A stretch of 32,000 nt of DNA from Halomicrobium mukohataei DSM 12286. Its GTDB lineage: Archaea > Halobacteriota > Halobacteria > Halobacteriales > Haloarculaceae. The position numbers were made by a program, and so were the translations under genes. This document shows, piece by piece, positions 16,638-30,181 of this stretch. The DNA lies in NCBI RefSeq assembly GCF_000023965.1, contig NC_013202.1:1860001-1892000 (forward strand). The letters run 5' to 3'. The notes under the pieces are model-generated. The model searched no databases, was not told the origin of the DNA, and saw only the letters and a list, made by a program, of their open reading frames with translations. Numbering within the stretch: position 1 is the stretch's first letter; every line of letters begins with the position of its first letter.

Positions 16638-16800
16638 TACCTCCCCGTGGCTTCCGGCCGGCTAAATCGCTTTCCATGCGCGCCCGACGCGTCGCAATCC
16701 GTCGACGAATACCGCCGGTCCCTGCATACTCAGGGGGTTTTTCATCTGGTGGGAATCCCCGTGGCGGGCTATAAGGGAGTACTACCTACGACGAAGTGTA

Positions 16801-17961
16801 ATGACTGATCCCATCGGAGCCCCTGGAACGAGTATGAGTCGCCGAGAGTTCGTCGCCGCAACGGGCCTGAGCGGTTCGCTGGCACTCGCCGGCTGTCAGG
16901 CCCCCACGTCGTCCTCGAAGGTCTCGACGACGAGCGAGACGGCGACGGAGACCTCGATGGCGAGTCAGTCCGAGTCGCTGCCGACGACGTCGCCGCCGGA
17001 GATCGTCAACGTCGACGAGCAGGGCGGCGAGGTCACGATTTCGACCGTCGCCTCGAAGCACATGGTCCACCCCGAGGAGACGATGGGCGGCCCGGTCGAA
17101 CTGCCGAAGGTGTGGGCGTTCCAGGCCGACGACGGCGAGCCCAGCGTCCCCGGTCCGATCCTCCGGACGACCGAAGGCGAGGACATGGAGGTGACGCTCG
17201 ACAACACCGACGCCAACATGCCCCACACGCTGCACTTCCACGGCGTCCGCAAGACCTGGGAGAACGACGGCGTGCCGACGACGACGGGCATCACGGTCAA
17301 TCCCGGCGAGAAGCACACCTACGAGATTCCGGCCAACGTCCCCGGGACGCACCTCTATCACTGCCACTACCAGACCCAGCGTCACATCGACATGGGGATG
17401 TACGGCATCTTCCGCGTCGACCCGAAGGGGTACGAGGAGGCCGACCAGGAGCTGTTCATGACGCTGAAAGACTGGGACTCCACCCTGAACAAGCAGATGG
17501 CCGGCATGGACGCCACCTACAGCCCGCGGGACCGCGACCCCGACGTGTTCACGATCAACGGCAAGAGCGCGCCCCGGACGCTCCATCCCGAAGACGGCTC
17601 GCCGGTCATCGTCTCGCAGGGCGACACGGTCCGCATCCATCTCACCAACAACGGGTACATGAGCCACCCGATGCACACGCACAACCACCGCTTCCGCGTG
17701 GTCGAGAAAGACGGCTCGAAGGTCCCCGAGGCAGCGCAGTACGAGCAGGACATCGTCAACGTCGCTCCCGCGGAGCGAAAGGCCATCGAGTTCGACGCCG
17801 ACGCCGACCCCGGCATCTACCTCATGCACTGCCACAAGGTCAGCCACGCGATGAACGGCAACACCTACCCCGGCGGGATGGTCGGCGGCATCGTCTACGA
17901 GGAGGCGATGGACTCGGATATCTTCGCCGAACTGATGGACTACGCCGGCTACGAAGGCTAA
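16801..17961 (+). CDS. Tat-lipoprotein two-domain multicopper oxidase
   Basis: 386 aa. 'SRREFVAATGLSGSLALAGC' combines a twin-arginine motif with a lipobox. The copper motifs are 'HTLHFHG', 'HLYHCHYQTQRHIDMGMYG', 'HPMHTHNH' and 'LMHCHKVSHAMNG'. A TATA-like 'CTATAAG' at 16769-16775, about 29 nt upstream, supports ATG 16801. Confidence 0.75.
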   Translation: MTDPIGAPGTSMSRREFVAATGLSGSLALAGCQAPTSSSKVSTTSETATETSMASQSESLPTTSPPEIVNVDEQGGEVTISTVASKHMVHPEETMGGPVELPKVWAFQADDGEPSVPGPILRTTEGEDMEVTLDNTDANMPHTLHFHGVRKTWENDGVPTTTGITVNPGEKHTYEIPANVPGTHLYHCHYQTQRHIDMGMYGIFRVDPKGYEEADQELFMTLKDWDSTLNKQMAGMDATYSPRDRDPDVFTINGKSAPRTLHPEDGSPVIVSQGDTVRIHLTNNGYMSHPMHTHNHRFRVVEKDGSKVPEAAQYEQDIVNVAPAERKAIEFDADADPGIYLMHCHKVSHAMNGNTYPGGMVGGIVYEEAMDSDIFAELMDYAGYEG

Positions 17962-19148: not shown

Positions 19149-19454
19149 TCACACCACGTAGGACTGCAGTTCACCGCGAGACTGCACGTCGACGAACCGG
19201 TAGCGCCGCCCGTCGTCGAGGTCGCCAGCGAAGTCCGGTCCGTCGACGCCGTCCATCCCGTAGACCTCGTCGGCCCCCCGACAGTCGTGGGCCAGGATCG
19301 ACCGCTCGACGGCTTCGGGCAGGCGCTCGCCGGGCGGGACCTCGACGACGAACAGCCGGTCGGTGAAGCTCTTTGCCGTCCAGGCGTCCTGGACGCCGTT
19401 GCGGTCGGCGATCTCCTCGGCCAGCGTGCGCAGCTGTGTGGCACGGTCGCTCAT
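19149..19454 (-). CDS. Hypothetical acidic protein (101 aa)
   Basis: This is the only ORF in the gap with haloarchaeal composition, and I do not recognise a family. It is preceded by a one-mismatch copy of the island palindrome, 37 nt upstream of its ATG. Confidence 0.5.
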   Translation of the reverse strand: MSDRATQLRTLAEEIADRNGVQDAWTAKSFTDRLFVVEVPPGERLPEAVERSILAHDCRGADEVYGMDGVDGPDFAGDLDDGRRYRFVDVQSRGELQSYVV

Positions 19455-19491: not shown

Positions 19492-19503
19492 CGAAGGTGT
19501 TCG
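19492..19503. promoter_or_regulatory. CGAAG-GT-GTTCG, a one-mismatch copy of the island palindrome
   Basis: The site is intergenic. 37 nt separate it from the ATG at 19454 on the minus strand, matching the spacing class of the perfect copies. Confidence 0.4.
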
Positions 19504-19557
19504 CCCGCCTCTGGCCGTCACTGCTCCGAGCGCGTCGCCCCGTGGGTCCCGACGGCG

Positions 19558-21402
19558 TCAGTCGCCGTCGGTCGGCCGGTCCTCGCCATCCTCGGACCGC
19601 AACTCCGACGAGGCTCCGCTCACTTCGCTCTCGGAACCACCGTCGGACCGCAACTCCGACGAGGCTCCGCTCACTTCGCTCTCGGAGCCGCCGTCGGTCA
19701 GTGCGGGCAGTCGCTCGGACGCGAACCACTCGAACTCGCGGGCTCGCATGCCGTCGCGGTCGAGGTTCCACGGGTCGTTGCTGGTCACTCGCGGCCCTTC
19801 GAGCCACGAGGTGACGACGTTCCAGAGGAAGAGGAGCTGGCCGACGACGAGCAGGACGACGCCCAGCGTCGCGATCTGGTGGAGCAGCGTGAACAGGTCG
19901 ATCGGACCGACGGCCACGTCGTAGGTCGCGTACCGCCGGGGCATCCCGGCGTAGCCCAGCAGGATCATCGGGAAGAAGGTGATGTTGGTCCCGATCATCG
20001 TGAGCCAGAAGTGGGCTTTGGCGAGCGTGCGCTGGTACCAGCGGCCGGTGTAGATGGGGAACCAGTAGTAGATCCCGGCGAACACCGCGAAGGCGATCCC
20101 GCCCATGATGACGTAGTGGAAGTGGGCGACGACCTGGTAGGTGTCGTGCAACAGGAGGTCGACGGGGATCGCCGCCTCGAAGACGCCGGTCATCCCGCCG
20201 ATGACGAAGTTGGCGATGAAGCCGACACAGAAGAGGAACGGTGCGGTCAGCCGCAGGCGGCCGTTCCACATCGTCGCCATCCAGTTGAACGTCTTGACCG
20301 CGCTGGGGATCGCGATCGAGATCGTGATCGCCATGAACGCGCCCCGAAGCCGCGGGTCCATCCCGGTCGCGAACATGTGGTGTGCCCAGACGCCAAAGGA
20401 GAGGACTCCCAGCGCCAGCGTCGAGTAGACGACGAACTTGAAGCCGAACAGCTTCCGACCGCAGAACTTCGGGAGGATGTAGCTGATCAGCCCCATCGGT
20501 GGGAGCACGAGGATGTACACCTCGGGATGGCCGAAGAACCAGAACAGGTGTTGCCACAACAGCGTCCCGCCGCCCTCACCGATCGCGAAGAAGGCCGTTC
20601 CCATGTTGCGATCGAGCAGCAACATTACGAGGGCGCTGCCCAGCAGGGGGAACGCAAAGAGGATCTGGCCGGACTGGACCAGCACGGTCCAGCTGAAGAT
20701 GTCGAGGTTGGCCCAGTCGATGTCCTCGCCCTGTTCGGTGAAGATGGTCGCGATGAAGTTGATCGCACCCATCGTCGCCGAGACGCCGGTCAGGTGCAGC
20801 CCCAGGATCATCAGGTCGATCGCGGGGCTTGGCTGATCCAGCGACAGCGGCGTGTACATCGTCCAGGCCGTCTGTGCGGGTGCGATGCCGGGGATGAAGA
20901 AGCCGGCCCAGATCAGGACCGCCCCGAAGGGCAACAGCCAGAACGCGATCGCGTTGATCCGCGGGAACGCCATGTCGTCAGCCCCGATCAACAGCGGGAC
21001 GAAGTAGTTCGAGAACGCCGCCAGGATCGGCGTCCCGAACAGGAACAGCATCGTGATTCCGTGGCTGGTCAGGAGCGCGTTGTACATCGCCGGCTGGAGG
21101 AAGTTCGAGGTCGGGGTGACCAGCTCGAACCGCATCAACACGACTGCCACGCCGCCCCAGGCGAAGGCCAGCACTGCGAAGGTCCCGTAGAGCAGTCCGA
21201 TGTCTTTGTGGTCGACCGTCGTGAGCCAGCGGGTCAGTCCGCCGGGCTTCTCGCCGTGGTGTGCCGTCTCGTCGACCGTCCCGCCACCGCCGCCGACGGC
21301 CGGCGTGTACGAGCGCCAGTTCTCTAGCCTCGTTACGACCGCGGCCGCACCGGCCACCAGTGCGACCATCACTGTCGTCAGGACGAGCTGCGTTGCTACC
21401 AT
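19558..21402 (-). CDS. coxA: Cytochrome c oxidase subunit I (A-type heme-copper oxidase)
   Basis: 614 aa. The canonical motifs are 'DHKDIGLLYG', 'YNALLTSHG', 'WFFGHPEVYILVLPPMG', 'WAHHMF' and 'VVAHFHYV'. The protein also has an N-terminal TM-containing extension and an acidic C-terminal tail containing a tandem repeat. Confidence 0.9.
   Translation of the reverse strand: MVATQLVLTTVMVALVAGAAAVVTRLENWRSYTPAVGGGGGTVDETAHHGEKPGGLTRWLTTVDHKDIGLLYGTFAVLAFAWGGVAVVLMRFELVTPTSNFLQPAMYNALLTSHGITMLFLFGTPILAAFSNYFVPLLIGADDMAFPRINAIAFWLLPFGAVLIWAGFFIPGIAPAQTAWTMYTPLSLDQPSPAIDLMILGLHLTGVSATMGAINFIATIFTEQGEDIDWANLDIFSWTVLVQSGQILFAFPLLGSALVMLLLDRNMGTAFFAIGEGGGTLLWQHLFWFFGHPEVYILVLPPMGLISYILPKFCGRKLFGFKFVVYSTLALGVLSFGVWAHHMFATGMDPRLRGAFMAITISIAIPSAVKTFNWMATMWNGRLRLTAPFLFCVGFIANFVIGGMTGVFEAAIPVDLLLHDTYQVVAHFHYVIMGGIAFAVFAGIYYWFPIYTGRWYQRTLAKAHFWLTMIGTNITFFPMILLGYAGMPRRYATYDVAVGPIDLFTLLHQIATLGVVLLVVGQLLFLWNVVTSWLEGPRVTSNDPWNLDRDGMRAREFEWFASERLPALTDGGSESEVSGASSELRSDGGSESEVSGASSELRSEDGEDRPTDGD
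19592..19693. repeat. 2 x 51-nt in-frame tandem duplication within the coxA 3' end
   Basis: The units at 19592-19642 and 19643-19693 differ at 2 positions. They encode 'DGGSESEVSGASSELRS' twice in the C-terminal tail of CoxA. Confidence 0.85.
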
Positions 21403-21441
21403 TGGAGGCCGGTTTCGCCGCTCGCTACATCGGCGTTACTC

Positions 21442-21453
21442 CGAACACGTTCG
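21442..21453. promoter_or_regulatory. CGAAC-AC-GTTCG palindrome upstream of coxA
   Basis: A perfect copy. 39 nt separate it from the coxA ATG at 21402. It lies in the 94-nt gap between coxA and the upstream 190-aa gene. Confidence 0.6.
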
Positions 21454-21496
21454 TGCGGGTCTTGATGGTCGTTCCCACGACTCACTGTCGCGTCAC

Positions 21497-22069
21497 CTAG
21501 AACGGGGTGTCGAATCCGTCTTCCCCGGCAGCGCCGTCGGCCGCCGTGGCGTCGCCCGCGTCGATATCGGAGGGGATCTCGCCGGTCTCTCGGAACACCG
21601 TTTCGAGTTCCCGTAGCTTCGCGTTGATCGTCTCACTCTGGTGGTGCATCGGGTCGACCCGGACCCGCACGAGGTCGTACTCGTGGGACTCGCGACAGCC
21701 GTTCCAGGCCCGGAACGCGCCGACGGTCAGCGTGTCGCTCTGTGGACAGAACTCGGTCGTCGGCGTGAACTCCGCCCGGAGGACGCGCTCGCCGTCCGTC
21801 TCGGTCTCGCGGGCGTACCGAAAGCCCGACTCGGGATGTCGCCGGTCGAGGTTCAGCCGCGCGAGGTTGTAGCCGAAGGTCATGTCGATGACGCCGCGAC
21901 GCTCGAAGAGCGTCCGGGTCGCCCGGTGGAAGGCGGCGTGTTCGCGGCCGGTCAGGACCGCGCCGTCGAGGAACGGTCCCGGTTCCGGGAGGTGTTCGGG
22001 GGCGAACTCGTCGTAGTCGTCGTACTCGGGGCCCTCACCGTCGCGAGCGAATCCGGAGAGGAGGCTCAT
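21497..22069 (-). CDS. Hypothetical protein (190 aa) with a DUF59/MIP18-like C-terminal half
   Basis: The N-terminus is acidic. 'RAEFTPTTEFCPQSDTLTVGAFRA ... VRVRVDP' resembles the DUF59 'T-x-T-x-x-x-CP' metal-cluster-assembly motif. The ATG at 22069 lies 38 nt from the palindrome. Confidence 0.55.
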   Translation of the reverse strand: MSLLSGFARDGEGPEYDDYDEFAPEHLPEPGPFLDGAVLTGREHAAFHRATRTLFERRGVIDMTFGYNLARLNLDRRHPESGFRYARETETDGERVLRAEFTPTTEFCPQSDTLTVGAFRAWNGCRESHEYDLVRVRVDPMHHQSETINAKLRELETVFRETGEIPSDIDAGDATAADGAAGEDGFDTPF

Positions 22070-22107
22070 ACGTCAGCGTTGGGCCGCCAGCCCGCTGTGG
22101 TTGCTGG

Positions 22108-22119
22108 CGAACACGTTCG
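22108..22119. promoter_or_regulatory. CGAAC-AC-GTTCG palindrome centred between divergent genes
   Basis: A perfect copy. 38 nt separate it from ATG 22069 (minus strand) and 38 nt from GTG 22158 (plus strand). Confidence 0.65.
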
Positions 22120-22157
22120 GGCAAACCCAGACCGCGGTCCCGGCCGACGCTCCGATC

Positions 22158-22532
22158 GTGACCGCAACGTCGATCGACGCCGAACGACGCTACGACGACG
22201 CACAGTTCTCCGCACAGACGATCCACGAGACCGAGCGCCAGAAGGTCGTCCTGGGATACTTCGAGCCGGGACAGTTCATCCCCGTCCACGCGCCCGACAG
22301 CGACGTGGCGATCACGGTCGTGTCGGGTTCGGGCGTGATCCGCGACGGCGAGACCGACCACGCGGTCGAGCCCGGGAGCGTCGCCGTCGTGCCCGCAGGG
22401 ACGGAACGCGGGGTGAAAGCCGACGACGGCGAGCGACTTGAGGCGACGCTCGTCACCGCGCCACCGCCGACCGACGCCGAACACGAGCCGGTACGTCGGG
22501 GCCTCCAGACGGGACAGTTCGACCCGGACTGA
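22158..22532 (+). CDS. Cupin domain protein (124 aa)
   Basis: 'GQFIPVHAPDSDVAITVVSGSGVIRDGETDHAVEPGSVAVVPAG' shows the two-motif pattern of the cupin beta-barrel. The ORF track starts at TTG 22101, which would place the palindrome inside the coding sequence. The in-frame GTG at 22158 restores the 38-nt spacing seen at the other sites. Confidence 0.6.
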   Translation: MTATSIDAERRYDDAQFSAQTIHETERQKVVLGYFEPGQFIPVHAPDSDVAITVVSGSGVIRDGETDHAVEPGSVAVVPAGTERGVKADDGERLEATLVTAPPPTDAEHEPVRRGLQTGQFDPD

Positions 22533-22547
22533 TATCGTCGCTCTGGC

Positions 22548-22559
22548 CGAACACGTTCG
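22548..22559. promoter_or_regulatory. CGAAC-AC-GTTCG palindrome (extended form GGCCGAAC-AC-GTTCGGCC, 22545-22562)
   Basis: A perfect copy. 39 nt separate it from ATG 22599 of the DUF2249-cupin operon. Confidence 0.65.
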
Positions 22560-22598
22560 GCCAAAGTCCCTCCCGCTCGTGGCCACTACCGTCGACCG

Positions 22599-22832
22599 AT
22601 GCCAGCCGAAACACTCGATCTGCGCGAGGTACCGCCGCCACAGCGCCACCCCATGATCCACGAGGCGTTCCAGACCCTCGATAGCGGCGAGGCCCTGGAG
22701 ATCGTCAACGACCACGAACCGAAGCCGCTGTTCTACGAGTTCCAGGCGGAGGTCGAGGCCTTCGACGCGGAGGGGTACTCCTGTGAGGAGCGCGACGACG
22801 GCAACTACGTCGCCCGGCTCCCGAAAGCATGA
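22599..22832 (+). CDS. DUF2249 family protein (77 aa)
   Basis: 'LDLREVPPPQRHPMIHEAFQTLDSGEALEIVNDHEPKPLFYEF' matches my recollection of the DUF2249 signature: a TusA-like small domain with the pattern 'D.R.l.P..' ... 'l.l..dhdP.pL'. Confidence 0.7.
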   Translation: MPAETLDLREVPPPQRHPMIHEAFQTLDSGEALEIVNDHEPKPLFYEFQAEVEAFDAEGYSCEERDDGNYVARLPKA

Positions 22833-23131
22833 GCGACACCGAACTGGTCTCGCTGGACGACCTCGACGACGACGGCCGGGCGACGCTGTTCGAGCACGAA
22901 CCCCACACTGTCCGGCTCAGCCTCGCGGCCGACGAGGGCGTCCCGGCCCACCAACATCCCGACCGCCAGATCGTCTTTCACCAGCTCTCGGGGGAGCTGG
23001 ACCTCCACCTCGGTGACGAGGTCGTGTCACTGACGGCTGGCGACGTGGTCCGGTTCGACGGCGATCAGGACATCTCTCCCCAGGCCCGGACCGACAGCGA
23101 GGCGCTGTTGATCCTCGCGTCTTCGGCCTGA
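22829..23131 (+). CDS. Cupin domain protein (100 aa), translationally coupled to DUF2249
   Basis: Its ATG at 22829 overlaps the TGA at 22830-22832. 'GVPAHQHPDRQIVFHQLSGELDLHLGDEVVSLTAGDVVRFDG' is a cupin motif pair. Confidence 0.65.
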   Translation: MSDTELVSLDDLDDDGRATLFEHEPHTVRLSLAADEGVPAHQHPDRQIVFHQLSGELDLHLGDEVVSLTAGDVVRFDGDQDISPQARTDSEALLILASSA

Positions 23132-23186
23132 CCCCTCGGTTCGACCGTCCCCGGCCTCACCCCCCGTTTTCGCCGCGAACGCACTC

Positions 23187-23268
23187 ATACGGACGGTTGT
23201 AGACGTTTACCCAGTCGACCGCACGACGGCGTGCGATCGATCTGGTAACGACCGACAACTTTCCGTAT
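23187..23268. repeat. 82-nt long-hairpin repeat element, copy 2
   Basis: See copy 1. It lies between the convergent cupin gene (ending at 23131) and the 99-aa gene. Its last base overlaps that gene's stop codon at 23268-23270. Confidence 0.75.
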
Positions 23269-23567
23269 CACCGACTGCCAGAGAACAGCTCCAGGGCGGC
23301 CGACAGCGTCTCGTCGTCGCCGTCGCTCGCGGCCCGTTCGAGTTGCGCTTCCGGGACTGCCAGGAGCCGTTCGACGAGGCGGTCGCCGAGTCGCTCTACG
23401 GCGTCGCGCTCGCGTTCCGACAGCTCAAGCTCCGACAGCGCTCGCTCGACCTGGCGGTCGCGGACGGACTCGCCGCGTTCTCTGATCCGTTCGATCGCCG
23501 CGTTCTCCGCCGACCGGGTGGCGTCGCCCCCGGGTTCGCGGTCCGGCTCCGTCAGGCAGTCGGTCAT
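23268..23567 (-). CDS. Small helical protein (99 aa) resembling the C-terminal dimerisation domain of glutamyl-tRNA reductase
   Basis: Trimmed from the 23268..24149 ORF to ATG 23567, which overlaps the upstream stop (ATGA on the minus strand). 'RALSELELSERERDAVERLGDRLVERLLAVPEAQLERAASDGDDETLSAALELF' resembles the HemA/GlutR dimerisation helix region. Confidence 0.55.
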   Translation of the reverse strand: MTDCLTEPDREPGGDATRSAENAAIERIRERGESVRDRQVERALSELELSERERDAVERLGDRLVERLLAVPEAQLERAASDGDDETLSAALELFSGSR

Positions 23568-23824
23568 GCCTTCCAGATCGTCGTCACGGTCACGTCGTCG
23601 CCCTCGACGGTGTCGTAGGCGAAGCCGCGGTCGTCGAGTTTCGGGTACAGAAACTCCGGCGCGCGGTCGTTGAACTGGACGACGACCTCGTCGTCGTCGA
23701 TCTCCGCCAGGGTTTCGAGGGTGTTTTGCAGTGGCTTGGGCGGGCCCAGCGAACGCACGTCGAGTTCGCGGGTCGGTGCGTCGTCGGGTGCGTCGGTCGT
23801 CTGCAGGGCCTCGGTCGCGTCCAT
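23564..23824 (-). CDS. DUF2249 family protein (86 aa), second copy
   Basis: ATG 23824. 'RELDVRSLGPPKPLQNTLETLAEIDDDEVVVQFNDRAPEFLYPKL' shows the DUF2249 pattern. 38 nt separate the start from the palindrome. Confidence 0.7.
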   Translation of the reverse strand: MDATEALQTTDAPDDAPTRELDVRSLGPPKPLQNTLETLAEIDDDEVVVQFNDRAPEFLYPKLDDRGFAYDTVEGDDVTVTTIWKA

Positions 23825-23862
23825 GCGTGAGCAGACGGCTGCCCCCGGAGCAACCGTTGTCC

Positions 23863-23874
23863 CGAACGTGTTCG
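23863..23874. promoter_or_regulatory. CGAAC-GT-GTTCG palindrome centred between divergent genes
   Basis: A perfect copy. 38 nt separate it from ATG 23824 (minus strand) and 38 nt from ATG 23913 (plus strand). Confidence 0.65.
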
Positions 23875-23912
23875 GCCACACCGACAGCACGCTGGCGGAC
23901 GAACGGACGGGT

Positions 23913-25217
23913 ATGAGCGTCATTCCGGCCGCCGTCGACGAGTCGAGCGGTCCGCCGACTGCGATCCCGCTCGTCCACTTCCTCGTGGCACTGGCGTACC
24001 TGGTCGCGGGAGTGGCGACTGCCGCAGTGACGACCGGCTGGGCGGGGCAGGTCGCTCACGTCCACCTGTTCGTCGCGGGCTGGATCTGCCTGACCATCCT
24101 CGGGGCGATGACGCAGTTCGTCCCGGTCTGGTCGGGCGTCTCGCTGCACTCCAGACGGCTGGCGGTCCTCCAGTTGCCCCTCGCGGGGCTCGGGTTCGCG
24201 GGCCTGGCCGCTGGCTTTCTCACGGGCACGCTCGGGTTGCTCCCGATCGCTGGCGTGCTCGCGGTCGCCGGTGTCTGGCTCTTCGCCTACAATCTCGCCC
24301 GGACGCTCGCCGGGGCCCGTCCGTTCGATGCCACGGAGTCACACTTCGTCGTCGCCGTCGGCTGGTTCGTCGTCGTGACCACGCTGGGGATGGTGCTGGC
24401 GGTCGACTTCGCCGCGAGCGCGCTCCCCGCTGTGGGCCTCACCCACGCGACCGTTCGCTCGGCCCACGCGACGGCGGCGATCTTCGGTGCCGTCCTCACG
24501 ACGGTGCTCGGGGCGCTCTACCAGCTGGCGACGATGTTCACCCAGACCGAACTCGGTCCGATCGAGCGGCGCTTCCAGCGGGTCGAAACGCTCGCGTACC
24601 CGGTCGGCGTGGCGGCGCTCGTCGTGGGCCGGCTGTTCGGCGTCGCCCCGATCGCCCGCGCTGGCGGGGTGGTCGTCGCCCTCTCCGTGCTGGGCATCGC
24701 CGTCGTCGTCGCCAACAGGCTCCGCCAGACTCGCGTCGAGTGGACGCCGATGCTCACCCGGTACGGACTCGCGGCAGCGGGACTGGGCGCGTGGGCGGTC
24801 GCGGCGCTGGTCGGCTGGTCGCAGAACGCGCTCGGGCCGGCCGTCACCTTCGGCGGCCCGACGACGGGCCCGCTGTTACTGGCCGGCGGTCTGGCTTTCG
24901 TCGTCCTCGGAACGCTGTACCACATCGTTCCGTTTCTCGTGTGGGTCGACCGCTACAGCGATCAGGTCGGCCTCGAACCGGTGCCGATGGTCGACGATCT
25001 CTACCTCGATCGGCTGGCGGTCGTCGACGGCGTCGCCTACACCGCCGGGATCGCGCTGGTCGTCCTCGGTTCGGTCGCGCCGACGCTCCTCCCGTCGCCC
25101 GCGATCACTGCGGGCTGGGGACTGGCGGCCCTGGGCGCACTCGCCTTCGCGGCGAACCTGCTGCTCGTCGTCGTCGAACACGGCGACTACTCCGTCGGGA
25201 CCCTCGTCAGTGCGTAA
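23913..25217 (+). CDS. Polytopic (about 12 TM) His-containing membrane protein, possibly NnrS-like
   Basis: 434 aa counted from ATG 23913. 'AHVHLFVAGWICLTILGAMTQFVPVWSG' resembles the NnrS 'H.HE..fGf....i.GFllTAvPnWTG' segment, and further conserved-looking His residues occur ('SAHATAAIFG', 'LYHIVPF'). The family call is tentative. Confidence 0.55.
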   Translation: MSVIPAAVDESSGPPTAIPLVHFLVALAYLVAGVATAAVTTGWAGQVAHVHLFVAGWICLTILGAMTQFVPVWSGVSLHSRRLAVLQLPLAGLGFAGLAAGFLTGTLGLLPIAGVLAVAGVWLFAYNLARTLAGARPFDATESHFVVAVGWFVVVTTLGMVLAVDFAASALPAVGLTHATVRSAHATAAIFGAVLTTVLGALYQLATMFTQTELGPIERRFQRVETLAYPVGVAALVVGRLFGVAPIARAGGVVVALSVLGIAVVVANRLRQTRVEWTPMLTRYGLAAAGLGAWAVAALVGWSQNALGPAVTFGGPTTGPLLLAGGLAFVVLGTLYHIVPFLVWVDRYSDQVGLEPVPMVDDLYLDRLAVVDGVAYTAGIALVVLGSVAPTLLPSPAITAGWGLAALGALAFAANLLLVVVEHGDYSVGTLVSA

Positions 25218-25244
25218 GTGGGGTCGCGTCCGCAAGCGGTGTCG

Positions 25245-25577
25245 TCAATCGACGTACAGCGAGTAGAGGATGATGGCGAAGGCGACCGTCGTCAGGAGGC
25301 TCTGGACGAAGACACTGACCACGAGCCAGTCCTGGAAGCCGCTCCCGGGGAGCCACGAGAGACGGGCCAGGATCCTGGGGACGAAGATGTCGATCACGCC
25401 CCCTATCAACGCCCCAAATGTCATTATCCCGAACCCCCACGAGAGGGCCTGTAACTCTCTGGCGCTCGTTCGCTGGTAGGCCCGATAGGAGTAGTACGTA
25501 ATCAGCCCACCGAGGATGAGCGTGAGCGTCTTCGTCGCGACGATACCGACCTGTGAACTGGGGACATGTGGGCTCAT
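25245..25577 (-). CDS. Small membrane protein (110 aa, about 4 TM), partner of the upstream wHTH regulator
   Basis: The protein is hydrophobic ('LTLILGGLITYYSY', 'WGFGIMTFGALIGGVIDIF', 'LLTTVAFAIILYSLY'). Its ATG at 25577 overlaps the regulator's stop (ATGA on the minus strand). Confidence 0.6.
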   Translation of the reverse strand: MSPHVPSSQVGIVATKTLTLILGGLITYYSYRAYQRTSARELQALSWGFGIMTFGALIGGVIDIFVPRILARLSWLPGSGFQDWLVVSVFVQSLLTTVAFAIILYSLYVD

Positions 25578-25951
25578 GTTTCTTTTCTGACCTCCGACCA
25601 GAGGTTTTCGAGGCGTTCGTCCGGCGTCCGAGGCCGGTGAGAGATCTCCACTTCGAACGTCCGGTCGTCGTCCAGCGAGATGACGACGTCTTCGAAGCTG
25701 ATCGCGTAGCGGCTGGCGTGTTGCCCGTCCGGACGCACCTCGACGCCCTCGTGGAGCAGCGACGCCTCCGTGAGCAGTTCGAGCTTTCGGTAGGTCGTCG
25801 ATAGCGGTACGCCGCTTGCCTCCGCGATCTCGCTGGCTGTCATCGGCTCTTCCAGGACGCTGACGATCGCCCGACAGTCCTCGTCGTCCAGCGCGTCGAG
25901 CACGTCCTCTAGCGCCGGCGACAACTCGTCTTCGAACGGGTCCCGGACCAT
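25574..25951 (-). CDS. ArsR-like winged helix-turn-helix transcriptional regulator
   Basis: 125 aa counted from ATG 25951. 'DCRAIVSVLEEPMTASEIAEASGVPLSTTYRKLELLTEASLLHE' is a wHTH. A TATA-like 'GTTTTACC' on the gene strand (25978-25985) lies about 31 nt upstream. Confidence 0.7.
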   Translation of the reverse strand: MVRDPFEDELSPALEDVLDALDDEDCRAIVSVLEEPMTASEIAEASGVPLSTTYRKLELLTEASLLHEGVEVRPDGQHASRYAISFEDVVISLDDDRTFEVEISHRPRTPDERLENLWSEVRKET

Positions 25952-26058
25952 CCGTGACAGAGTCTCACCTGTGGAGGGGTAAAACAGCACCGACACGGAC
26001 TGACGAGTTCGGCCGCCATACTGCGGCTCTTGTCGGTATCGCCGCCGCCCGCGCCGAC

Positions 26059-26074
26059 GGCGAACATGTTCGCC
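26059..26074. promoter_or_regulatory. Perfect 16-bp palindrome GGCGAAC-AT-GTTCGCC upstream of norB
   Basis: It has the same CGAAC-N2-GTTCG core (26061-26072). 65 nt separate it from norB ATG 26138, and about 109 nt separate it from the divergent regulator's start at 25951. Confidence 0.6.
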
Positions 26075-26137
26075 CCGTCGCCCGGTGCTGGGAACCCGAC
26101 GCGGATTGATGTATTCGGTCGGCCAATCGCCACCTGT

Positions 26138-28426
26138 ATGCAAGTACAACGTGCGACGATCGCGAAGATCATCGCGGTGGTCTTCGTGTTCAATCTGATC
26201 GTCATGGGTGGTGGTGCCTGGCTCGCGTACCAGTCGGCACCGCCGATTCCCGACGAAGTCGTCGGACCCGACGGCGACACGATCGTGACCGGACAGGAGA
26301 TCAGAGACGGCAAGAAGGCGTTCCAGAAGGACGGGCTGATGAACCACGGCTCGATCCTGGGCAACGGTGCGTACTACGGGCAGGACTACACTGCGGACAC
26401 GCTGGACCTGAAGGTCCAGCACATGCGGGACTACTACGCCCAGGAGCGCCACGACAGCGCGTACGACGCCCTCGAAAGCGACGAGCAGGCCGCCGTCGCC
26501 GACGTGGTCGAGCGGGACCTCGACGGCGAGTACGACGGCGGCCCGATCGAGTACTCCGCGGCGGAGGCCTACGCTCACGAGCAGGTCCGCCAGGAGTACG
26601 TCGAACGCTACCACGAGGGCGACCACGAGCGCGGCGTGCCCGTCGACATGATCGACAGCGAGGAGGCGGCCCGCCAGTTCGCGGACTTCGCGCTGTGGAC
26701 GGCGTGGTTCTCCCACACCGATCGACCGGGTGGCGACCACTCCTACACGAACGACTGGCCCTTCCAGCCCGGTGCCGGTAACGACGCGACGGCGGCGGCG
26801 ATGACCTGGAGCGTCATCGCGATGGTCCTGCTGGTCGCGGGGGCCGGCTTCGGCGTCTGGCTGTACAAGTCGATCTCCCTCCCCGAACCGTCCGCGAAGG
26901 GAATTTCCGTCCCCGAACCCGGCGACGTGAAGGTGTTCCCCAGCCAGCGGGCCGCCTTGCGCTTCGTGCCGGTCGCCGCCGGACTCTTCCTGGCACAGGT
27001 GTTGTTGGGCGGGTTACTGGCGCACTTCTACATCGAACGCGCCGGCTTCTTCGGCGTCGAAGAGATATTCGGCGTCCACATCCTCCAGCTCCTCCCCTTC
27101 GCCATCGCGAAGACCTGGCACATCGACCTGGGGATCCTCTGGATCGCCGCGACGTGGCTCGGGGCCGGACTGTTCCTTCCGCCGCTGCTGACGGGCCACG
27201 AACCGGATCGCCAGTCGACGTACGTCAACGGGCTGTTGGCGGCGATCGTCGTGGTCGTCGTCGGCGGTCTCGGCGGGATCTGGCTCGGCTCCAAGGGGTA
27301 CATCGACGGCAGCCTCTGGTGGATCCTGGGCAACGAGGGCCTGGAGTACCTCGAAGTCGGGAAGCTCTGGCAGTTCGGCATCCTCGCGGGCTTCCTCATC
27401 TGGGCCGTCCTCTCGGTTCGGGGCCTGAAGCCGCTGCTCGATAGGGAACCCAGCTACGGGCTCGCACACATGATTCTCTATGCCGGCGGCTCGATCGCCC
27501 TGCTCTTTACCGCGGGCTTCCTCTTTACCCCGGACACCAACATCGCCGTCACGGAGTTCTGGCGCTGGTGGGTCGTTCACATGTGGGTCGAAGGGGCCTT
27601 CGAGTTCTTCATCGTCGCCATCATCGGGCTGACGCTGGTGTCGATGAATCTCCTGAAGCGCCGCAGCGCCGAGAAGGCGGTCATGCTCCAGGCGCTGCTG
27701 GTGATGTCGACCGGCGTCATCGGCGTCTCCCATCACTACTGGTGGATCGGGATGCCCGATATCTGGGTGCCCATCGGGAGCGTCTTCTCGACGCTGGAGC
27801 TGATCCCGCTGGTGTTCATCCTCTACGAGGCACTGGGCCAGTACCGCGCTATGACCGGGGCCGGCGAGAGCTTCCCCTACCGGCTCCCGTTCATGTTCAT
27901 CATCGCCAGCGGCGTCTGGAACTTCGTCGGCGCTGGGGTGCTGGGCTTTTTCATCAACCTTCCGTTGATCAACTACTACGAGCACGGCACCTACCTCACC
28001 GTCGGCCACGCCCACGCCGCGATGTTCGGGGCCTTCGGCTTCCTCGCGCTGGGGATGGTCACGTACATGCTACAGATCGCCATCGAACCCGACCGCTGGG
28101 ACGGCACCTGGCTTCGCTACGCCTTCTGGTGCTGGAACGTCGGGCTGGCGCTAATGGTGTTCGTCTCCGTGCTGCCGGTGGGCTTCCTCCAGCTGGAGAC
28201 GATCTTCACCGGGAGCTACGCGGCCGGCCGGAGCCTGGCGTTCTACAACCAGCCGATCGTCCAGACCCTGTTCTGGGCTCGTCTGCCCGGTGACACGCTG
28301 ATGATCCTGGGGACGGCAATCTACGCGGCCGACATCGTGCGCAAACGGTTCGTCCTCCGAAAGACCGCGGCGGATCCGGACATCGACGACGTCGCCGTCG
28401 CGAAAGGCGTCCTCGACGACGACTAA
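26138..28426 (+). CDS. norB: Quinol-dependent nitric oxide reductase (single-subunit qNOR, NorB/NorZ)
   Basis: 762 aa counted from ATG 26138. An N-terminal TM helix is followed by a periplasmic domain ('GKKAFQKDGLMNHGSILGNGAYYGQDYTAD') and then an HCO subunit I-like core ('HMWVEGAFEFF', 'HHYWWIG', 'TVGHAHAAMFGAFG'). The length and architecture are typical of qNOR. Confidence 0.85.
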   Translation: MQVQRATIAKIIAVVFVFNLIVMGGGAWLAYQSAPPIPDEVVGPDGDTIVTGQEIRDGKKAFQKDGLMNHGSILGNGAYYGQDYTADTLDLKVQHMRDYYAQERHDSAYDALESDEQAAVADVVERDLDGEYDGGPIEYSAAEAYAHEQVRQEYVERYHEGDHERGVPVDMIDSEEAARQFADFALWTAWFSHTDRPGGDHSYTNDWPFQPGAGNDATAAAMTWSVIAMVLLVAGAGFGVWLYKSISLPEPSAKGISVPEPGDVKVFPSQRAALRFVPVAAGLFLAQVLLGGLLAHFYIERAGFFGVEEIFGVHILQLLPFAIAKTWHIDLGILWIAATWLGAGLFLPPLLTGHEPDRQSTYVNGLLAAIVVVVVGGLGGIWLGSKGYIDGSLWWILGNEGLEYLEVGKLWQFGILAGFLIWAVLSVRGLKPLLDREPSYGLAHMILYAGGSIALLFTAGFLFTPDTNIAVTEFWRWWVVHMWVEGAFEFFIVAIIGLTLVSMNLLKRRSAEKAVMLQALLVMSTGVIGVSHHYWWIGMPDIWVPIGSVFSTLELIPLVFILYEALGQYRAMTGAGESFPYRLPFMFIIASGVWNFVGAGVLGFFINLPLINYYEHGTYLTVGHAHAAMFGAFGFLALGMVTYMLQIAIEPDRWDGTWLRYAFWCWNVGLALMVFVSVLPVGFLQLETIFTGSYAAGRSLAFYNQPIVQTLFWARLPGDTLMILGTAIYAADIVRKRFVLRKTAADPDIDDVAVAKGVLDDD

Positions 28427-29790: not shown

Positions 29791-29815
29791 CCGATCCTAC
29801 CGATCGTAGGATCGG
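29791..29815. promoter_or_regulatory. 9-bp-stem inverted repeat CCGATCCTA-(7 nt)-TAGGATCGG, followed by CTTTTC
   Basis: The arms at 29791-29799 and 29807-29815 are perfectly complementary, and T4 follows at 29817-29820. It lies in the long untranslated region upstream of the PaaB-like gene. It could be an operator or an attenuator/terminator-like structure. Confidence 0.4.
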
Positions 29816-29911
29816 CTTTTCGCCGTCCGTCTCCCGAACCGGTGCGTCCCCGTTCCCAGCCGGTGGGAACGCGGTCCCCCGGTTTTGTGGGTCGGGTCGT
29901 AACTGTTCAGT

Positions 29912-30181
29912 ATGCCAGACGACCCCCTGTCAGTCACCGTCGACGAACCGCGGGACGCTGTCTCTCGGGAGTGGGAACTGTTCGTCCGCGAGCACGAGTC
30001 GGACCCGCTCACGCACGCGGGCAGCGTCAGCGCGCCGTCGGCCGACATCGCCCGCGAACAGGCTCGGCAGCTGTTCGACTGGAGCGCCGAGGCGCTGTGG
30101 CTCTGTCCCGCCGAGGCGGTCGAGCGGTGCCAGACCGAGCGTGCCTCGGCCGTCGCCGCCACGGAGGTCGACGAGGCGTGA
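29912..30181 (+). CDS. PaaB-like small protein (89 aa), radical-SAM-partnered
   Basis: 'REWELFVREHESDPLTHAGSVSAPSADIAREQARQLFDWSAEALWLCPAEAV' parallels the PaaB pattern 'W.l.EVFVR......H.H.GS..A.......AR..Y.RR.....IWVV'. Its TGA at 30179-30181 overlaps the downstream GTG at 30178-30180. Confidence 0.65.
   Translation: MPDDPLSVTVDEPRDAVSREWELFVREHESDPLTHAGSVSAPSADIAREQARQLFDWSAEALWLCPAEAVERCQTERASAVAATEVDEA

What the first reader, a model, noticed from the sequence alone, without database searches (positions are those of the whole stretch)
19492..26074. Six CGAAC-N2-GTTCG palindromes at fixed distance from start codons define a putative regulon joining coxA, qNOR and operons of unknown function
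Perfect copies lie at 21442-21453, 22108-22119, 22548-22559, 23863-23874 and 26061-26072, and a one-mismatch copy lies at 19492-19503.

- **Occurrence:** my line-by-line scan of the window found no other perfect copy, and all six are intergenic. Under an assumed composition of about two-thirds G+C, I estimate well under 0.1 chance occurrences in 32 kb.
- **Spacing from the 12-mer edge to the start codon:** 39 nt (coxA), 38 nt and 38 nt (divergent 190-aa gene and cupin GTG 22158), 39 nt (DUF2249-cupin operon), 38 nt and 38 nt (divergent DUF2249 operon and NnrS-like gene), and 37 nt (101-aa gene). Only norB differs, at 65 nt.
- **Geometry:** two sites are exactly centred in 88-bp divergent intergenic regions.
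- **Spacers:** they are GC-rich without a canonical TATA box. This fits activator-dependent promoters with leaderless or very short-leader mRNAs.

From memory, work on the Haloferax volcanii oxygen-responsive regulator NarO proposed a CGAA-N4-TTCG-type inverted repeat in denitrification promoters. This motif fits that form, but here it also covers an aa3-type oxidase subunit and several uncharacterised genes. No NarO-like gene is present in this window.
Basis: partly seen in the sequence, partly recalled or inferred. Interest (0 to 1): 0.8.

Follow-up and report, generated by a model that had tools for sequence, protein, structure and literature searches.

The report
Haloarchaeal denitrification activator sites, already described
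The repeated 12-base palindromes are real and almost certainly binding sites for an activator that switches on nitric-oxide/denitrification genes in a salt-loving archaeon (Halomicrobium), but the same motif and regulon were already published for Haloferax, so this is a well-supported new instance with a few new details rather than a discovery.

Summary
Five perfect CGAAC-N2-GTTCG copies were found against 0.15 expected, plus a one-mismatch copy. All are intergenic, and the distances to start codons are exactly as reported.

The window is a Halomicrobium chromosome (CP045142.1). The motif is the published haloarchaeal denitrification promoter motif, CGAAYATDKTYG:
- It was studied in Haloferax mediterranei in 2023 and 2024, and seen earlier in the NarO work.
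- It lies about 66 nt upstream of nor.
- It is supported by mutagenesis.
- It is repeated through a nirK-nor island that carries DUF2249, cupin and radical-SAM genes.

What I add comes from 80 haloarchaeal nor loci:
- **Spacing.** The distance from motif to ATG peaks sharply at 38 nt. Basal promoter elements sit where leaderless transcripts would need them. This puts the palindrome centre at about -44.5, just upstream of BRE/TATA, which is an activator position. Single sites serve divergent 88-bp promoters.
- **Second promoter class.** norB, nirK and a RiPP/rSAM operon have the palindrome 64-68 nt out, followed by a G[AG]GAA[CT] box.
- **coxA.** The coxA paralogue keeps the site at 38 nt in three genera.
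- **"NnrS-like" gene.** It is a divergent heme-copper-oxidase-fold protein.
- **Candidate regulator.** The same genome encodes a BAT/HTH_10 regulator with two perfect motif copies in its own promoter. It lies next to a NarO-like gene, about 253 kb away.

The parts
19492..19503 (.). One-mismatch palindrome CGAAGGTGTTCG, 37 nt upstream of the ATG of the 101-aa gene (minus strand)
   Evidence: Orthologues of the 101-aa gene in 5 other loci all carry a motif 38-39 nt from their ATG. Haloarcula rubra has the same CGAAC..CTTCG variant. The PWM score of 12.1 bits is not significant on its own.
21442..21453 (.). Perfect palindrome, 39 nt upstream of the coxA paralogue ATG (minus strand)
   Evidence: The coxA paralogues of Halobellus rarus (L044) and Halohasta litorea (L025) carry CGAATATGTTCC 38 nt from their ATG.
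22108..22119 (.). Perfect palindrome centred in the 88-bp divergent region, 38 nt from DUF7998 (minus) and 38 nt from cupin GTG 22158 (plus)
   Evidence: Of 226 motifs in related loci, 21 have starts 36-42 nt away on both sides, and 11 have the exact 38/38 arrangement.
22548..22559 (.). Perfect palindrome, 39 nt upstream of the DUF2249-cupin operon
   Evidence: DUF2249a orthologues have the motif at 38-41 nt.
23863..23874 (.). Perfect palindrome centred in the 88-bp divergent region, 38 nt from the DUF2249b operon (minus) and 38 nt from the 434-aa HCO-fold membrane protein (plus)
   Evidence: The distance is exactly 38 nt in 16 of 21 DUF2249b and 14 of 17 membrane-protein orthologous promoters.
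26061..26072 (.). Perfect palindrome CGAACATGTTCG, 65 nt upstream of the qNOR ATG (class-2 promoter)
   Evidence: Of 79 norB loci, 37 have a perfect copy at 60-70 nt and about 19 more have a one-mismatch copy at 64-68 nt. H. mediterranei nor has the identical 12-mer at 66 nt (PMC10062603).
26090..26095 (+). GGGAAC box, 18-19 nt downstream of the norB palindrome (proximal element of class-2 promoters)
   Evidence: In the norB logo, position 22 is A in 35 of 37 and position 23 is A in 31 of 37. The offset histogram of G[AG]GAA[CT] after the motif peaks at 18-19 nt with 37 hits.
29835..29846 (.). Possible degenerate seventh site, CGAACCGGTGCG (one mismatch), 65 nt upstream of the RiPP/pseudo-rSAM operon
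   Evidence: It is weak by PWM, at 7.0 bits. It has the class-2 layout: a box or dyad at +18, a TTTTGT element, and the ATG at 65 nt. This layout is conserved in L007 and, in variant form, in L081.
29853..29870 (.). Dyad TTCCCAGCCGGTGGGAAC (TTCCC-N7... GGGAAC) in the RiPP/rSAM promoter
16739..16756 (+). TTTTCATCTGGTGGGAAT element followed by TATAAGG in the nirK promoter, which lacks the CGAAC palindrome in this genus
   Evidence: nirK in other genera has the palindrome at 66-67 nt plus a GGRAAY box.
19149..19454 (-). 101-aa protein, no family
19558..21402 (-). A-family heme-copper oxidase subunit I paralogue (CoxA), with no subunit II nearby
   Evidence: Pfam COX1 at 2e-148. NCBIfam CtaD_CoxA scores 663 bits against a cut-off of 670.75. 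The GHPEVY motif is present. It scores 447 bits to mycobacterial aa3 subunit I.
21497..22069 (-). 190-aa DUF7998 protein
   Evidence: precomputed PF25979.
22158..22532 (+). Cupin_2 protein. The GTG start at 22158 is supported by the spacing in orthologues.
22599..23131 (+). DUF2249 plus cupin operon
23268..23824 (-). DUF2249 plus GlutR_dimer-like operon
23913..25217 (+). 434-aa, 12-helix protein with six invariant His and a heme-copper-oxidase subunit I fold
   Evidence: pLDDT 88.9; cbb3 CcoN and cNOR NorB, E 3e-7, TM 0.6-0.7.
25245..25951 (-). HTH_20 (ArsR-like) regulator plus DUF7521 membrane protein, divergent from norB
26138..28426 (+). Quinol-dependent nitric oxide reductase (qNOR)
   Evidence: It is 98% identical to the Halomicrobium katesii protein.
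29912..31401 (+). Htur_1727-family candidate RiPP plus TIGR04347 pseudo-SAM/SPASM protein
16801..17961 (+). Two-domain multicopper nitrite reductase (nirK-type)

Best explanation
The palindromes are upstream activating sites of the haloarchaeal denitrification and nitric-oxide regulon, here in a Halomicrobium nirK-nor island.

**Binding and position.** A dimeric helix-turn-helix activator binds the 12-bp dyad (half-site CGAACA). In most target promoters the dyad spans -50 to -39 relative to the start codon. These transcripts are leaderless, so the start codon is also the transcription start. The site centre is then at about -44.5, directly upstream of a weak BRE/TATA. From there the bound protein would recruit TFB/TBP to promoters that are poor on their own.

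**Divergent promoters.** Because the site is symmetric, one dimer placed in the middle of an 88-bp divergent region can serve both genes.

**Second promoter class.** The core enzymes (norB; nirK in other genera) and a RiPP/rSAM operon use a different layout. The palindrome sits about 28 bp further upstream. A G[AG]GAA[CT] box occupies the proximal position. This box may be a half-site or the site of a second factor.

**Regulator.** The most likely regulator is the roughly 210-aa BAT/HTH_10 protein encoded about 253 kb away in the same genome. Its own promoter carries one site at exactly 38 nt and a second over the start site.

**Shown versus inferred.**
- Shown here: the sites, their spacing, their conservation, the promoter-element logo, and the regulator gene with its sites.
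- Shown elsewhere, in Haloferax: loss of promoter activity on mutation, and induction under denitrifying conditions.
- Inferred: the transcription start sites, activation by recruitment, the regulator's identity, and the signal (low oxygen and/or NO).
For: **In the window.**
- Five perfect copies against 0.15 expected. All are intergenic, with start codons at 37-39 nt.

**Across 80 nor loci from many genera.**
- 226 copies were found against about 19 expected.
- The motif-to-ATG distance has a sharp peak at 38 nt: 74 ATGs there, against a background of 0-3 per position.
- The logo of 75 unique promoters shows A at -33, T/T/A at -29 to -27, W at -11, A at -10 and Y at -1. These recur in unrelated gene families.
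- These positions match the haloarchaeal TATA box (-27/-28), the BRE, and the WW element (-10/-11) measured from transcription starts (PMC2151090). In Haloferax volcanii 72% of transcripts are leaderless (PMC4983044).
- 21 sites serve both directions, and 11 of them have the exact 38/38 arrangement.
- The class-2 layout is conserved.

**Published work.**
- The same 12-mer lies 66 nt from H. mediterranei nor. Point mutations lower nor and nos promoter activity. The motif was found in 83 promoter regions, including DUF2249, cupin, rSAM and halocyanin genes (PMC10062603).
- Genes of the motif-bearing island are induced under denitrifying conditions (PMC11218638).

**Regulator.**
- The BAT/HTH_10 gene carries the motif 38-47 nt upstream in about 17 of 23 loci.
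- In this genome it has perfect sites 38 nt and 5 nt from its ATG.
Against: - No transcription start site, expression data or binding data exist for this organism.
- The leaderless inference rests on sequence logos. Many promoters in the set are orthologous, so they are not independent.
- The spacers in this window carry only vestigial TATA signals.
- The regulator's identity is circumstantial. Co-occurrence with the island is confounded, and autoregulation is suggestive but not proof. A NarO/DmsR-like gene and a local ArsR-like gene are alternatives.
- nirK in this genome lacks the palindrome, so the regulon does not map simply onto 'denitrification'.
- I could not read Hattori 2016, so what it showed about NarO and the repeat is taken second-hand.
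Confidence: 0.8

Rival explanations
1. The dyad is bound by the NarO/DmsR-type oxygen-sensing regulator (four-Cys DmsR_N domain plus HTH_10), rather than by the BAT/HTH_10 protein.
For: - Papers I could read cite NarO as the regulator of Haloferax volcanii denitrification. They also state that a similar motif was seen in nar, nirK, nor and nos promoters of several genera, including Halomicrobium.
- This genome encodes a 208-aa protein with DmsR_N, BAT and HTH_10 domains and four Cys residues. Its operon shares the motif-bearing intergenic region with the BAT/HTH_10 gene.
Against: - H. mediterranei is reported to have no NarO or NarO homologue, yet it uses the motif (PMC10062603).
- The NarO-like gene is the last gene of an operon whose first start codon is 107 nt from the nearest site. 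That is not the class-1 arrangement.
Confidence: 0.25
2. The local ArsR-like HTH_20 regulator (25574-25951), with its DUF7521 membrane partner, binds the palindromes.
For: - It sits inside the island, divergent from norB.
- Homologues lie next to nirK or norB in 25 of 80 loci.
- Winged-helix dimers typically bind short dyads (general knowledge).
Against: - Its own promoter has no class-1 site. The norB site is 109 nt away, and the gene has a separate, good TATA-like element.
- Most motif-rich islands lack it, and 11 Haloarcula loci that have it carry at most 2 perfect palindromes.
- It is a better candidate for the proximal G[AG]GAA[CT] element of nirK and norB promoters. That is speculation.
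Confidence: 0.1
3. The sites are repressor operators, not activator sites.
For: - Palindromic operators are common for archaeal repressors.
- The regulator gene's own promoter has a second site only 5 nt from the ATG. That is a repressing position.
Against: - Class-1 sites lie upstream of BRE/TATA, not over them or over the start site.
- The promoters have very weak TATA boxes, as expected for activator dependence.
- Mutating the motif lowers nor and nos promoter activity in H. mediterranei (PMC10062603).
Confidence: 0.07
4. The dyad is a basal promoter element, such as an extended BRE read by a particular TFB paralogue, or a chance or repeat-element sequence without a dedicated regulator.
For: - The half-site CGAAC resembles the haloarchaeal BRE consensus CGAAA (PMC2151090).
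- Haloarchaea have many TFB and TBP paralogues.
Against: - The site lies 11-13 nt upstream of where the BRE sits.
- It is symmetric.
- In class-2 promoters it occurs about 28 bp further out.
- It is confined to a functionally coherent gene set.
- Chance is excluded.
Confidence: 0.03

Closest known systems
Haloferax mediterranei denitrification promoter motif CGAAYATDKTYG (Front Microbiol 2023, PMC10062603; AEM 2024, PMC11218638)
   Same: - The half-sites are the same.
- The norB site is the identical 12-mer at essentially the same distance from the ATG (65 vs 66 nt).
- There are multiple copies in a nirK-nor island that also holds DUF2249, cupin, rSAM/RiPP and HTH genes.
- The role is that of an activating element.
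   Different: - Four of the five perfect sites here have AC/GT rather than AT at the centre.
- nirK here lacks the motif.
- An A-type coxA paralogue and a DUF7998 gene are members here.
- The published work did not describe the 38-nt leaderless class, the bidirectional 88-bp arrangement, or the proximal G[AG]GAA[CT] box.
NarO-dependent promoters of Haloferax volcanii (Hattori et al. 2016, J Bacteriol; cited, not readable here)
   Same: - An inverted repeat of the CGAA-N4-TTCG form lies in denitrification promoters.
- An HTH_10-family regulator is involved.
- A NarO/DmsR-like gene exists in this genome.
   Different: - NarO is not in the window.
- H. mediterranei uses the motif without NarO.
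- The better local candidate is a BAT/HTH_10 protein without the four-Cys domain.
Archaeal upstream activating sequences placed just upstream of BRE/TATA (e.g. GvpE- or Ptr2-type activation; own knowledge)
   Same: The site abuts the BRE of a weak core promoter, consistent with recruitment of TBP/TFB.
   Different: The sequence and regulator family differ. No biochemical evidence exists here.
Bacterial FNR/CRP-family NO and oxygen regulators (Dnr, NnrR; box TTGAT-N4-ATCAA) and class II activation centred at -41.5 (own knowledge)
   Same: [quoted passage not shown]
   Different: The sequence, protein family and transcription machinery are unrelated.
Gram-positive LexA 'Cheo box' CGAAC-N4-GTTCG (own knowledge)
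   Same: The half-sites CGAAC/GTTCG are identical.
   Different: The spacer is 4 nt, not 2. It is a bacterial repressor system, the host here is an archaeon, and the gene set is respiratory. The resemblance is in sequence only.

Membership tests
Haloarchaeal denitrification motif CGAAYATDKTYG | 12-bp semi-palindrome with CGAAY / RTTCG half-sites | tested here: met
   The norB site matches the published consensus exactly. The other four perfect sites differ only at one central base (AC/GT instead of AT).
Haloarchaeal denitrification motif CGAAYATDKTYG | Located about 66 nt upstream of the nor start codon | tested here: met
   65 nt in the window. 64-68 nt in 37 loci with a perfect copy, plus about 19 loci with a one-mismatch copy.
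Haloarchaeal denitrification motif CGAAYATDKTYG | Repeated in promoters of a nirK-nor island that carries DUF2249, cupin, rSAM and related accessory genes | tested here: met
   compared with Table S8 of PMC10062603 and with PMC11218638.
Haloarchaeal denitrification motif CGAAYATDKTYG | Present upstream of nirK | tested here: not met
   The window nirK promoter has no palindrome. Other genera have it at 66-67 nt.
Haloarchaeal denitrification motif CGAAYATDKTYG | Mutation lowers promoter activity; genes are induced under micro-oxic or denitrifying conditions | not testable with these tools
   Known only for H. mediterranei (PMC10062603, PMC11218638).
NarO regulon (Haloferax volcanii) | NarO-type regulator (four-Cys N-terminal domain plus HTH_10) encoded in the genome | tested here: met
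   Not in the window. L087 3288-3914, from the same chromosome, has DmsR_N, BAT and HTH_10 domains and Cys17/80/82/90.
NarO regulon (Haloferax volcanii) | Expression of target genes depends on NarO; NarO binds the repeat | not testable with these tools
   The primary paper (PMC4800875) is not held.
UAS-type archaeal activation on leaderless promoters | Site at a fixed position immediately upstream of BRE/TATA relative to the transcription start | tested here: met
   The 38-nt peak and the promoter-element logo, compared with PMC2151090 and PMC4983044. The transcription start is inferred, not measured.
UAS-type archaeal activation on leaderless promoters | Experimentally mapped transcription start and activator-dependent TBP/TFB recruitment | not testable with these tools
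   No data.
Bacterial FNR/CRP-type boxes | TTGAT-N4-ATCAA consensus and a CRP-family regulator | tested here: not met
   The sequence differs. No such regulator is among the called genes.
LexA Cheo box | CGAAC-N4-GTTCG with a 4-nt spacer upstream of DNA-repair genes in bacteria | tested here: not met
   The spacer is 2 nt in all copies. The organism is a haloarchaeon. The gene set is respiratory.
NnrS family (for the 434-aa gene) | Match to Pfam NnrS (PF05940) | tested here: not met
   No hit even at E<=10. The fold and the names of homologues point to a divergent heme-copper oxidase family protein.

The most novel reading that the evidence does not exclude
The haloarchaeal NO/denitrification regulon may run on a two-tier promoter grammar that has not been described.

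**Tier 1.** A single autoregulated BAT/HTH_10 activator binds a dyad centred at -44.5 on leaderless promoters, often driving both directions from 88-bp divergent regions. This tier controls a conserved accessory module:
- DUF2249-cupin pairs
- DUF7998
- a six-His protein with a heme-copper-oxidase fold
- an A-type CoxA paralogue in some genera

**Tier 2.** The core enzymes nirK and norB need the same dyad placed three helical turns further out, plus a second proximal element (the G[AG]GAA[CT] box) read by another factor. That would account for the reported requirement of NO or nitrite, in addition to hypoxia, for nir and nor expression.
Probability: 0.35. Interest if true: 0.5.

Novelty: new member of a known kind. 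Interest (0 to 1): 0.33.

Why it matters
**What is already known.** Haloarchaeal denitrification is an acknowledged source of N2O and NO in hypersaline systems. Its regulators are still unidentified. The motif itself is known.

**What this locus and the 80-genome comparison add.**
- They sharpen the motif into a testable promoter model: a site at -44.5 on leaderless promoters, bidirectional use, and a second class for the core enzymes.
- They point to a specific autoregulated BAT/HTH_10 protein as the binder.
- They enlarge the conserved regulon with an oxidase subunit I paralogue and a divergent heme-copper-oxidase-fold protein. Both are candidates for NO or O2 handling.

**Limits.** None of this overturns current views. 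It is an incremental, well-supported extension.

Tried and rejected
**Tried without result.**
- Looking up the 434-aa protein by exact sequence failed because the start-codon call differs. The DUF2249 protein worked.
- Close relatives (L002-L006) are too similar for phylogenetic footprinting. Whole intergenic regions are conserved.
- Hattori 2016 and Pei 2014 could not be read.
- hhalign of the 434-aa family against single CoxA and NorB sequences was not significant. Structure prediction plus Foldseek settled the fold.
- The dyad pattern TTYNC-N7-GGGAAY is not enriched in the window as a whole: 5 found against 4.5 expected. The proximal element is therefore supported only by its fixed offset from the palindrome in many loci.

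**Considered and rejected.**
- I considered the 212-aa ORF at 7359-7997 as a possible regulator. It is a secreted or lipoprotein-like protein.
- One-mismatch copies at 21000 (inside coxA), 27199 and 30055 are coding and occur at chance level.
- I rejected these readings for the reasons given under rivals: LexA Cheo box, FNR box, BRE variant, and repeat element.
- I rejected the idea that coxA is a disguised NO reductase. It has the canonical GHPEVY motif, with the cross-link Tyr and the D-channel Glu, and scores as CtaD.

Full report
**1. Observation**

An exact search finds five perfect CGAACNNGTTCG copies, at 21442, 22108, 22548, 23863 and 26061. Dinucleotide-preserving shuffles expect 0.15, and none of 100 reaches five.

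With one mismatch allowed, the copy at 19492 appears together with four others: 21000, 27199, 29835 and 30055. One-mismatch copies as a class are at chance level, with 3.6 expected.

I called genes by GC3 and ORF length and checked them with Pfam. All six reported sites fall in intergenic DNA.

| Gene | Distance from motif edge to start codon |
|---|---|
| 101-aa gene | 37 nt |
| coxA | 39 nt |
| DUF7998 and cupin GTG 22158 | 38 and 38 nt |
| DUF2249a | 39 nt |
| DUF2249b and the 434-aa membrane protein | 38 and 38 nt |
| norB | 65 nt |

Both divergent spacers are 88 bp.

**2. Where the window comes from and what it encodes**

An exact-protein look-up places the window on a Halomicrobium chromosome, GCA_009217585.1 / CP045142.1. 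The qNOR is 98% identical to that of Halomicrobium katesii.

The region is a nirK-nor island containing:
- a nirK-type multicopper nitrite reductase
- a DUF4097 protein
- a 101-aa protein with no family
- an A-family oxidase subunit I
- DUF7998
- a cupin
- a DUF2249-cupin operon
- a DUF2249/GlutR_dimer-like operon
- a 434-aa membrane protein
- a DUF7521 protein with an ArsR-like HTH_20 regulator
- qNOR
- a TraB-like protein
- an Htur_1727-family RiPP with a pseudo-SAM/SPASM operon

The coxA product is a canonical A-type subunit I:
- NCBIfam CtaD_CoxA scores 663 bits against a cut-off of 670.75.
- The GHPEVY motif is present.
- It scores 447 bits to mycobacterial aa3 subunit I.
- No subunit II lies nearby.

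It does not match Pfam NnrS. Instead:
- Its homologues are annotated as heme-copper oxidase family proteins.
- It has six invariant histidines.
- A confident AlphaFold model (pLDDT 88.9) matches cbb3 CcoN and cNOR NorB (E 3e-7, TM 0.6-0.7, 12-14% identity).

**3. The motif is already in the literature**

A 2023 study of Haloferax mediterranei defined CGAAYATDKTYG as a semi-palindrome shared by denitrification promoters (PMC10062603). It reported that:
- the nor and nos promoters carry CGAACATGTTCG, and nirK carries CGAATATGTTCG;
- the motifs lie 66, 69 and 79 nt upstream of the ATG;
- point mutations reduce nor and nos promoter activity;
- 83 promoter regions carry the motif, including DUF2249, cupin, radical-SAM/SPASM, RiPP, halocyanin, multicopper-oxidase and HTH genes.

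A 2024 RNA-seq paper described a 12.5-kb chromosomal nirK-nor cluster with eight motif copies (PMC11218638). It is induced under denitrifying conditions. The authors proposed a bacterio-opsin-activator-like regulator in that cluster as a candidate.

The 2023 paper states that Hattori et al. [quoted passage not shown] I could not read Hattori 2016.

The 'regulon of denitrification plus uncharacterised genes' is published.

**4. Comparative test**

I fetched 80 qNOR loci with 10-kb flanks from GTDB species representatives spanning about 20 genera.
- CGAAY-N2-RTTCG occurs 226 times in 1.68 Mb, against about 19 in first-order Markov simulations.
- The central dinucleotide is almost always AT or AC/GT.

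I measured the distance from the motif edge to an ATG that opens an ORF of at least 70 codons.
- There is a very sharp peak at 38 nt, with 74 cases.
- Positions 37, 39, 40, 41 and 42 have 10, 18, 19, 14 and 8 cases. The background is 0-3.
- Secondary peaks lie at 64-68 nt and 130-133 nt.

Of the 226 motifs, 147 have a start codon at 36-42 nt on at least one side. Twenty-one have one on both sides, and 11 of those have the exact 38/38 arrangement.

Genes behind the 38-nt class are:
- both DUF2249 families
- the HCO-fold protein
- DUF7998
- the cupins
- the 101-aa protein
- a CGCGG-type RiPP precursor
- a ThiS-like protein in Halorubrum
- halocyanin
- a UbiA enzyme
- a roughly 213-aa BAT + HTH_10 regulator

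**5. Why 38 nt**

I built a logo from 75 unique class-1 promoters, numbered from the A of the ATG. It shows:
- the dyad at -50 to -39
- A at -33
- T/T/A at -29/-28/-27
- W at -11
- A at -10
- a pyrimidine at -1

These signals recur in unrelated gene families and in the window's own promoters.

They coincide with the haloarchaeal basal promoter as defined from mapped transcript 5' ends: TATA 'TTWT' centred at -27/-28, the BRE upstream of it, and a 'WW' element at -10/-11 (PMC2151090). In Haloferax volcanii 72% of protein-coding transcripts are leaderless (PMC4983044).

The simplest reading has three parts:
- These genes are leaderless.
- The dyad centre lies at about -44.5, directly upstream of the BRE.
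- The core promoters are weak.

That is the geometry of an activator site. It agrees with the loss of activity seen on mutation in H. mediterranei.

**6. norB is a second promoter class, not an exception**

In 37 loci the norB palindrome lies 64-68 nt from the ATG. About 19 further loci have a one-mismatch copy there. Halorubrum has a rearranged version.

A G[AG]GAA[CT] box follows 18-19 nt after the palindrome. Position 22 is A in 35 of 37 promoters, and the offset histogram peaks at 18-19 nt. A TATA-like element then sits about 27 nt before the ATG.

nirK promoters of other genera share this layout at 66-67 nt.

In the window:
- norB has GGGAAC at 26090-26095.
- The RiPP/rSAM promoter has a one-mismatch palindrome at 29835, a TTCCCAGCCGGTGGGAAC dyad at 29853-29870, and its ATG at 65 nt.
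- nirK has only the proximal element (16739-16756) plus TATAAGG, with no palindrome.

The proximal box lies about three helical turns from the palindrome's left half-site. It contains the same GAAC core. It may be a helper half-site or the site of a second factor. This is inference.

**7. Status of the weaker sites and of coxA**

All orthologues of the 101-aa gene carry a motif 38-39 nt from their ATG. Haloarcula rubra has the same CGAAC..CTTCG variant. The 19492 site is therefore credible despite its weak score.

The coxA paralogue occurs near nor in only three other loci: H. katesii, Halobellus rarus and Halohasta litorea. In each a motif lies 38-39 nt from its ATG. Its membership of the regulon is conserved where the gene exists. 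This is the main item not covered by the H. mediterranei lists.

**8. The regulator**

No HTH_10 gene is in the window. In related loci the BAT/HTH_10 gene carries the motif 38-47 nt upstream in about 17 of 23 cases, often with extra copies.

A homologue search found Halomicrobium orthologues. An exact look-up placed one on the same chromosome as the window, about 253 kb away (L087).
- Its promoter has a perfect CGAACATGTTCG exactly 38 nt from the ATG.
- A second perfect CGAACATATTCG lies 5 nt from the ATG. This suggests positive and negative autoregulation.
- The divergent operon ends in a 208-aa protein with DmsR_N, BAT and HTH_10 domains and four cysteines. This is a NarO/DmsR-like protein.

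H. mediterranei is reported to lack NarO but uses the motif. I therefore favour the BAT/HTH_10 protein as the binder, at about 0.5, with NarO-like second and the local ArsR-like protein third.

**9. Verdict**

The feature is real, strongly non-random and functionally coherent. It belongs to a known kind. Four things are new here:
- the genus-specific gene set, notably coxA
- the precise leaderless/-44.5 architecture with bidirectional use
- the class-2 composite promoters
- a concrete regulator candidate in this genome

Interest is moderate to low for discovery, but the promoter model is directly testable.

Noticed in passing
L087 5951-5962 and 5984-5995 (CP045142.1, same genome as the window, about 253 kb away): Two perfect motif copies lie in the promoter of a 209-aa BAT/HTH_10 regulator gene, one exactly 38 nt and one only 5 nt from its ATG. 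The divergent operon (138-aa protein, rSAM target, radical SAM) ends in a four-Cys protein with DmsR_N, BAT and HTH_10 domains (NarO-like). A formate/nitrite transporter-Usp fusion lies nearby.
   Followed up: partly
window 16739-16780: The nirK promoter lacks the CGAAC palindrome that nirK carries at 66-67 nt in other genera. It keeps a TTTTCATCTGGTGGGAAT element and a good TATA-like TATAAGG. nirK may therefore be wired differently in Halomicrobium (and in Haloarcula rubra, L081).
   Followed up: partly
window 29853-29870; related loci L081, L086: A second dyad type, TTCCC-N7-GGGAA, sits 6 nt after the degenerate palindrome in the promoter of the Htur_1727-family RiPP / pseudo-SAM-SPASM operon. 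Its right half is the G[AG]GAA[CT] box common to norB and nirK promoters.
   Followed up: partly
window 23913-25217: A 434-aa, 12-helix protein family is widespread in haloarchaea. It has six invariant His (H22, H51, H144, H185, H337, H423) and a heme-copper-oxidase subunit I fold. It has no Pfam or NCBIfam assignment for this member and is nearly always divergent from a DUF2249 gene.
   Followed up: partly
window 19590-19700: The 3' end of coxA contains a tandem duplication of about 54 nt. It encodes an acidic Ser/Glu-rich repeat in a C-terminal tail of about 70 aa beyond the oxidase domain. Relatives are called at 596-597 aa.
   Followed up: no
window about 29803-29823: A near-perfect hairpin, GATCCTACCGATCGTAGGATC, lies in the divergent region upstream of the RiPP/rSAM promoter. 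It is conserved in close relatives. Its function is unknown.
   Followed up: no
L048-L066 (Halorubrum loci), about 100-135 nt upstream of norB: In Halorubrum the perfect palindrome near norB serves a divergent ThiS/MoaD-like 140-aa gene, again at exactly 38 nt. norB itself has a GGGAAC box followed by CGAACATGTTGC closer to the ATG, which is a rearranged promoter.
   Followed up: partly
window 22101-22158: Public annotations disagree on starts. The cupin is called at 143 or 124 aa, the HCO-fold protein at 434, 449 or 464 aa, and coxA at 614 or 597 aa. The longer cupin and membrane-protein calls run through the palindrome. The 38-nt rule supports the shorter starts.
   Followed up: partly
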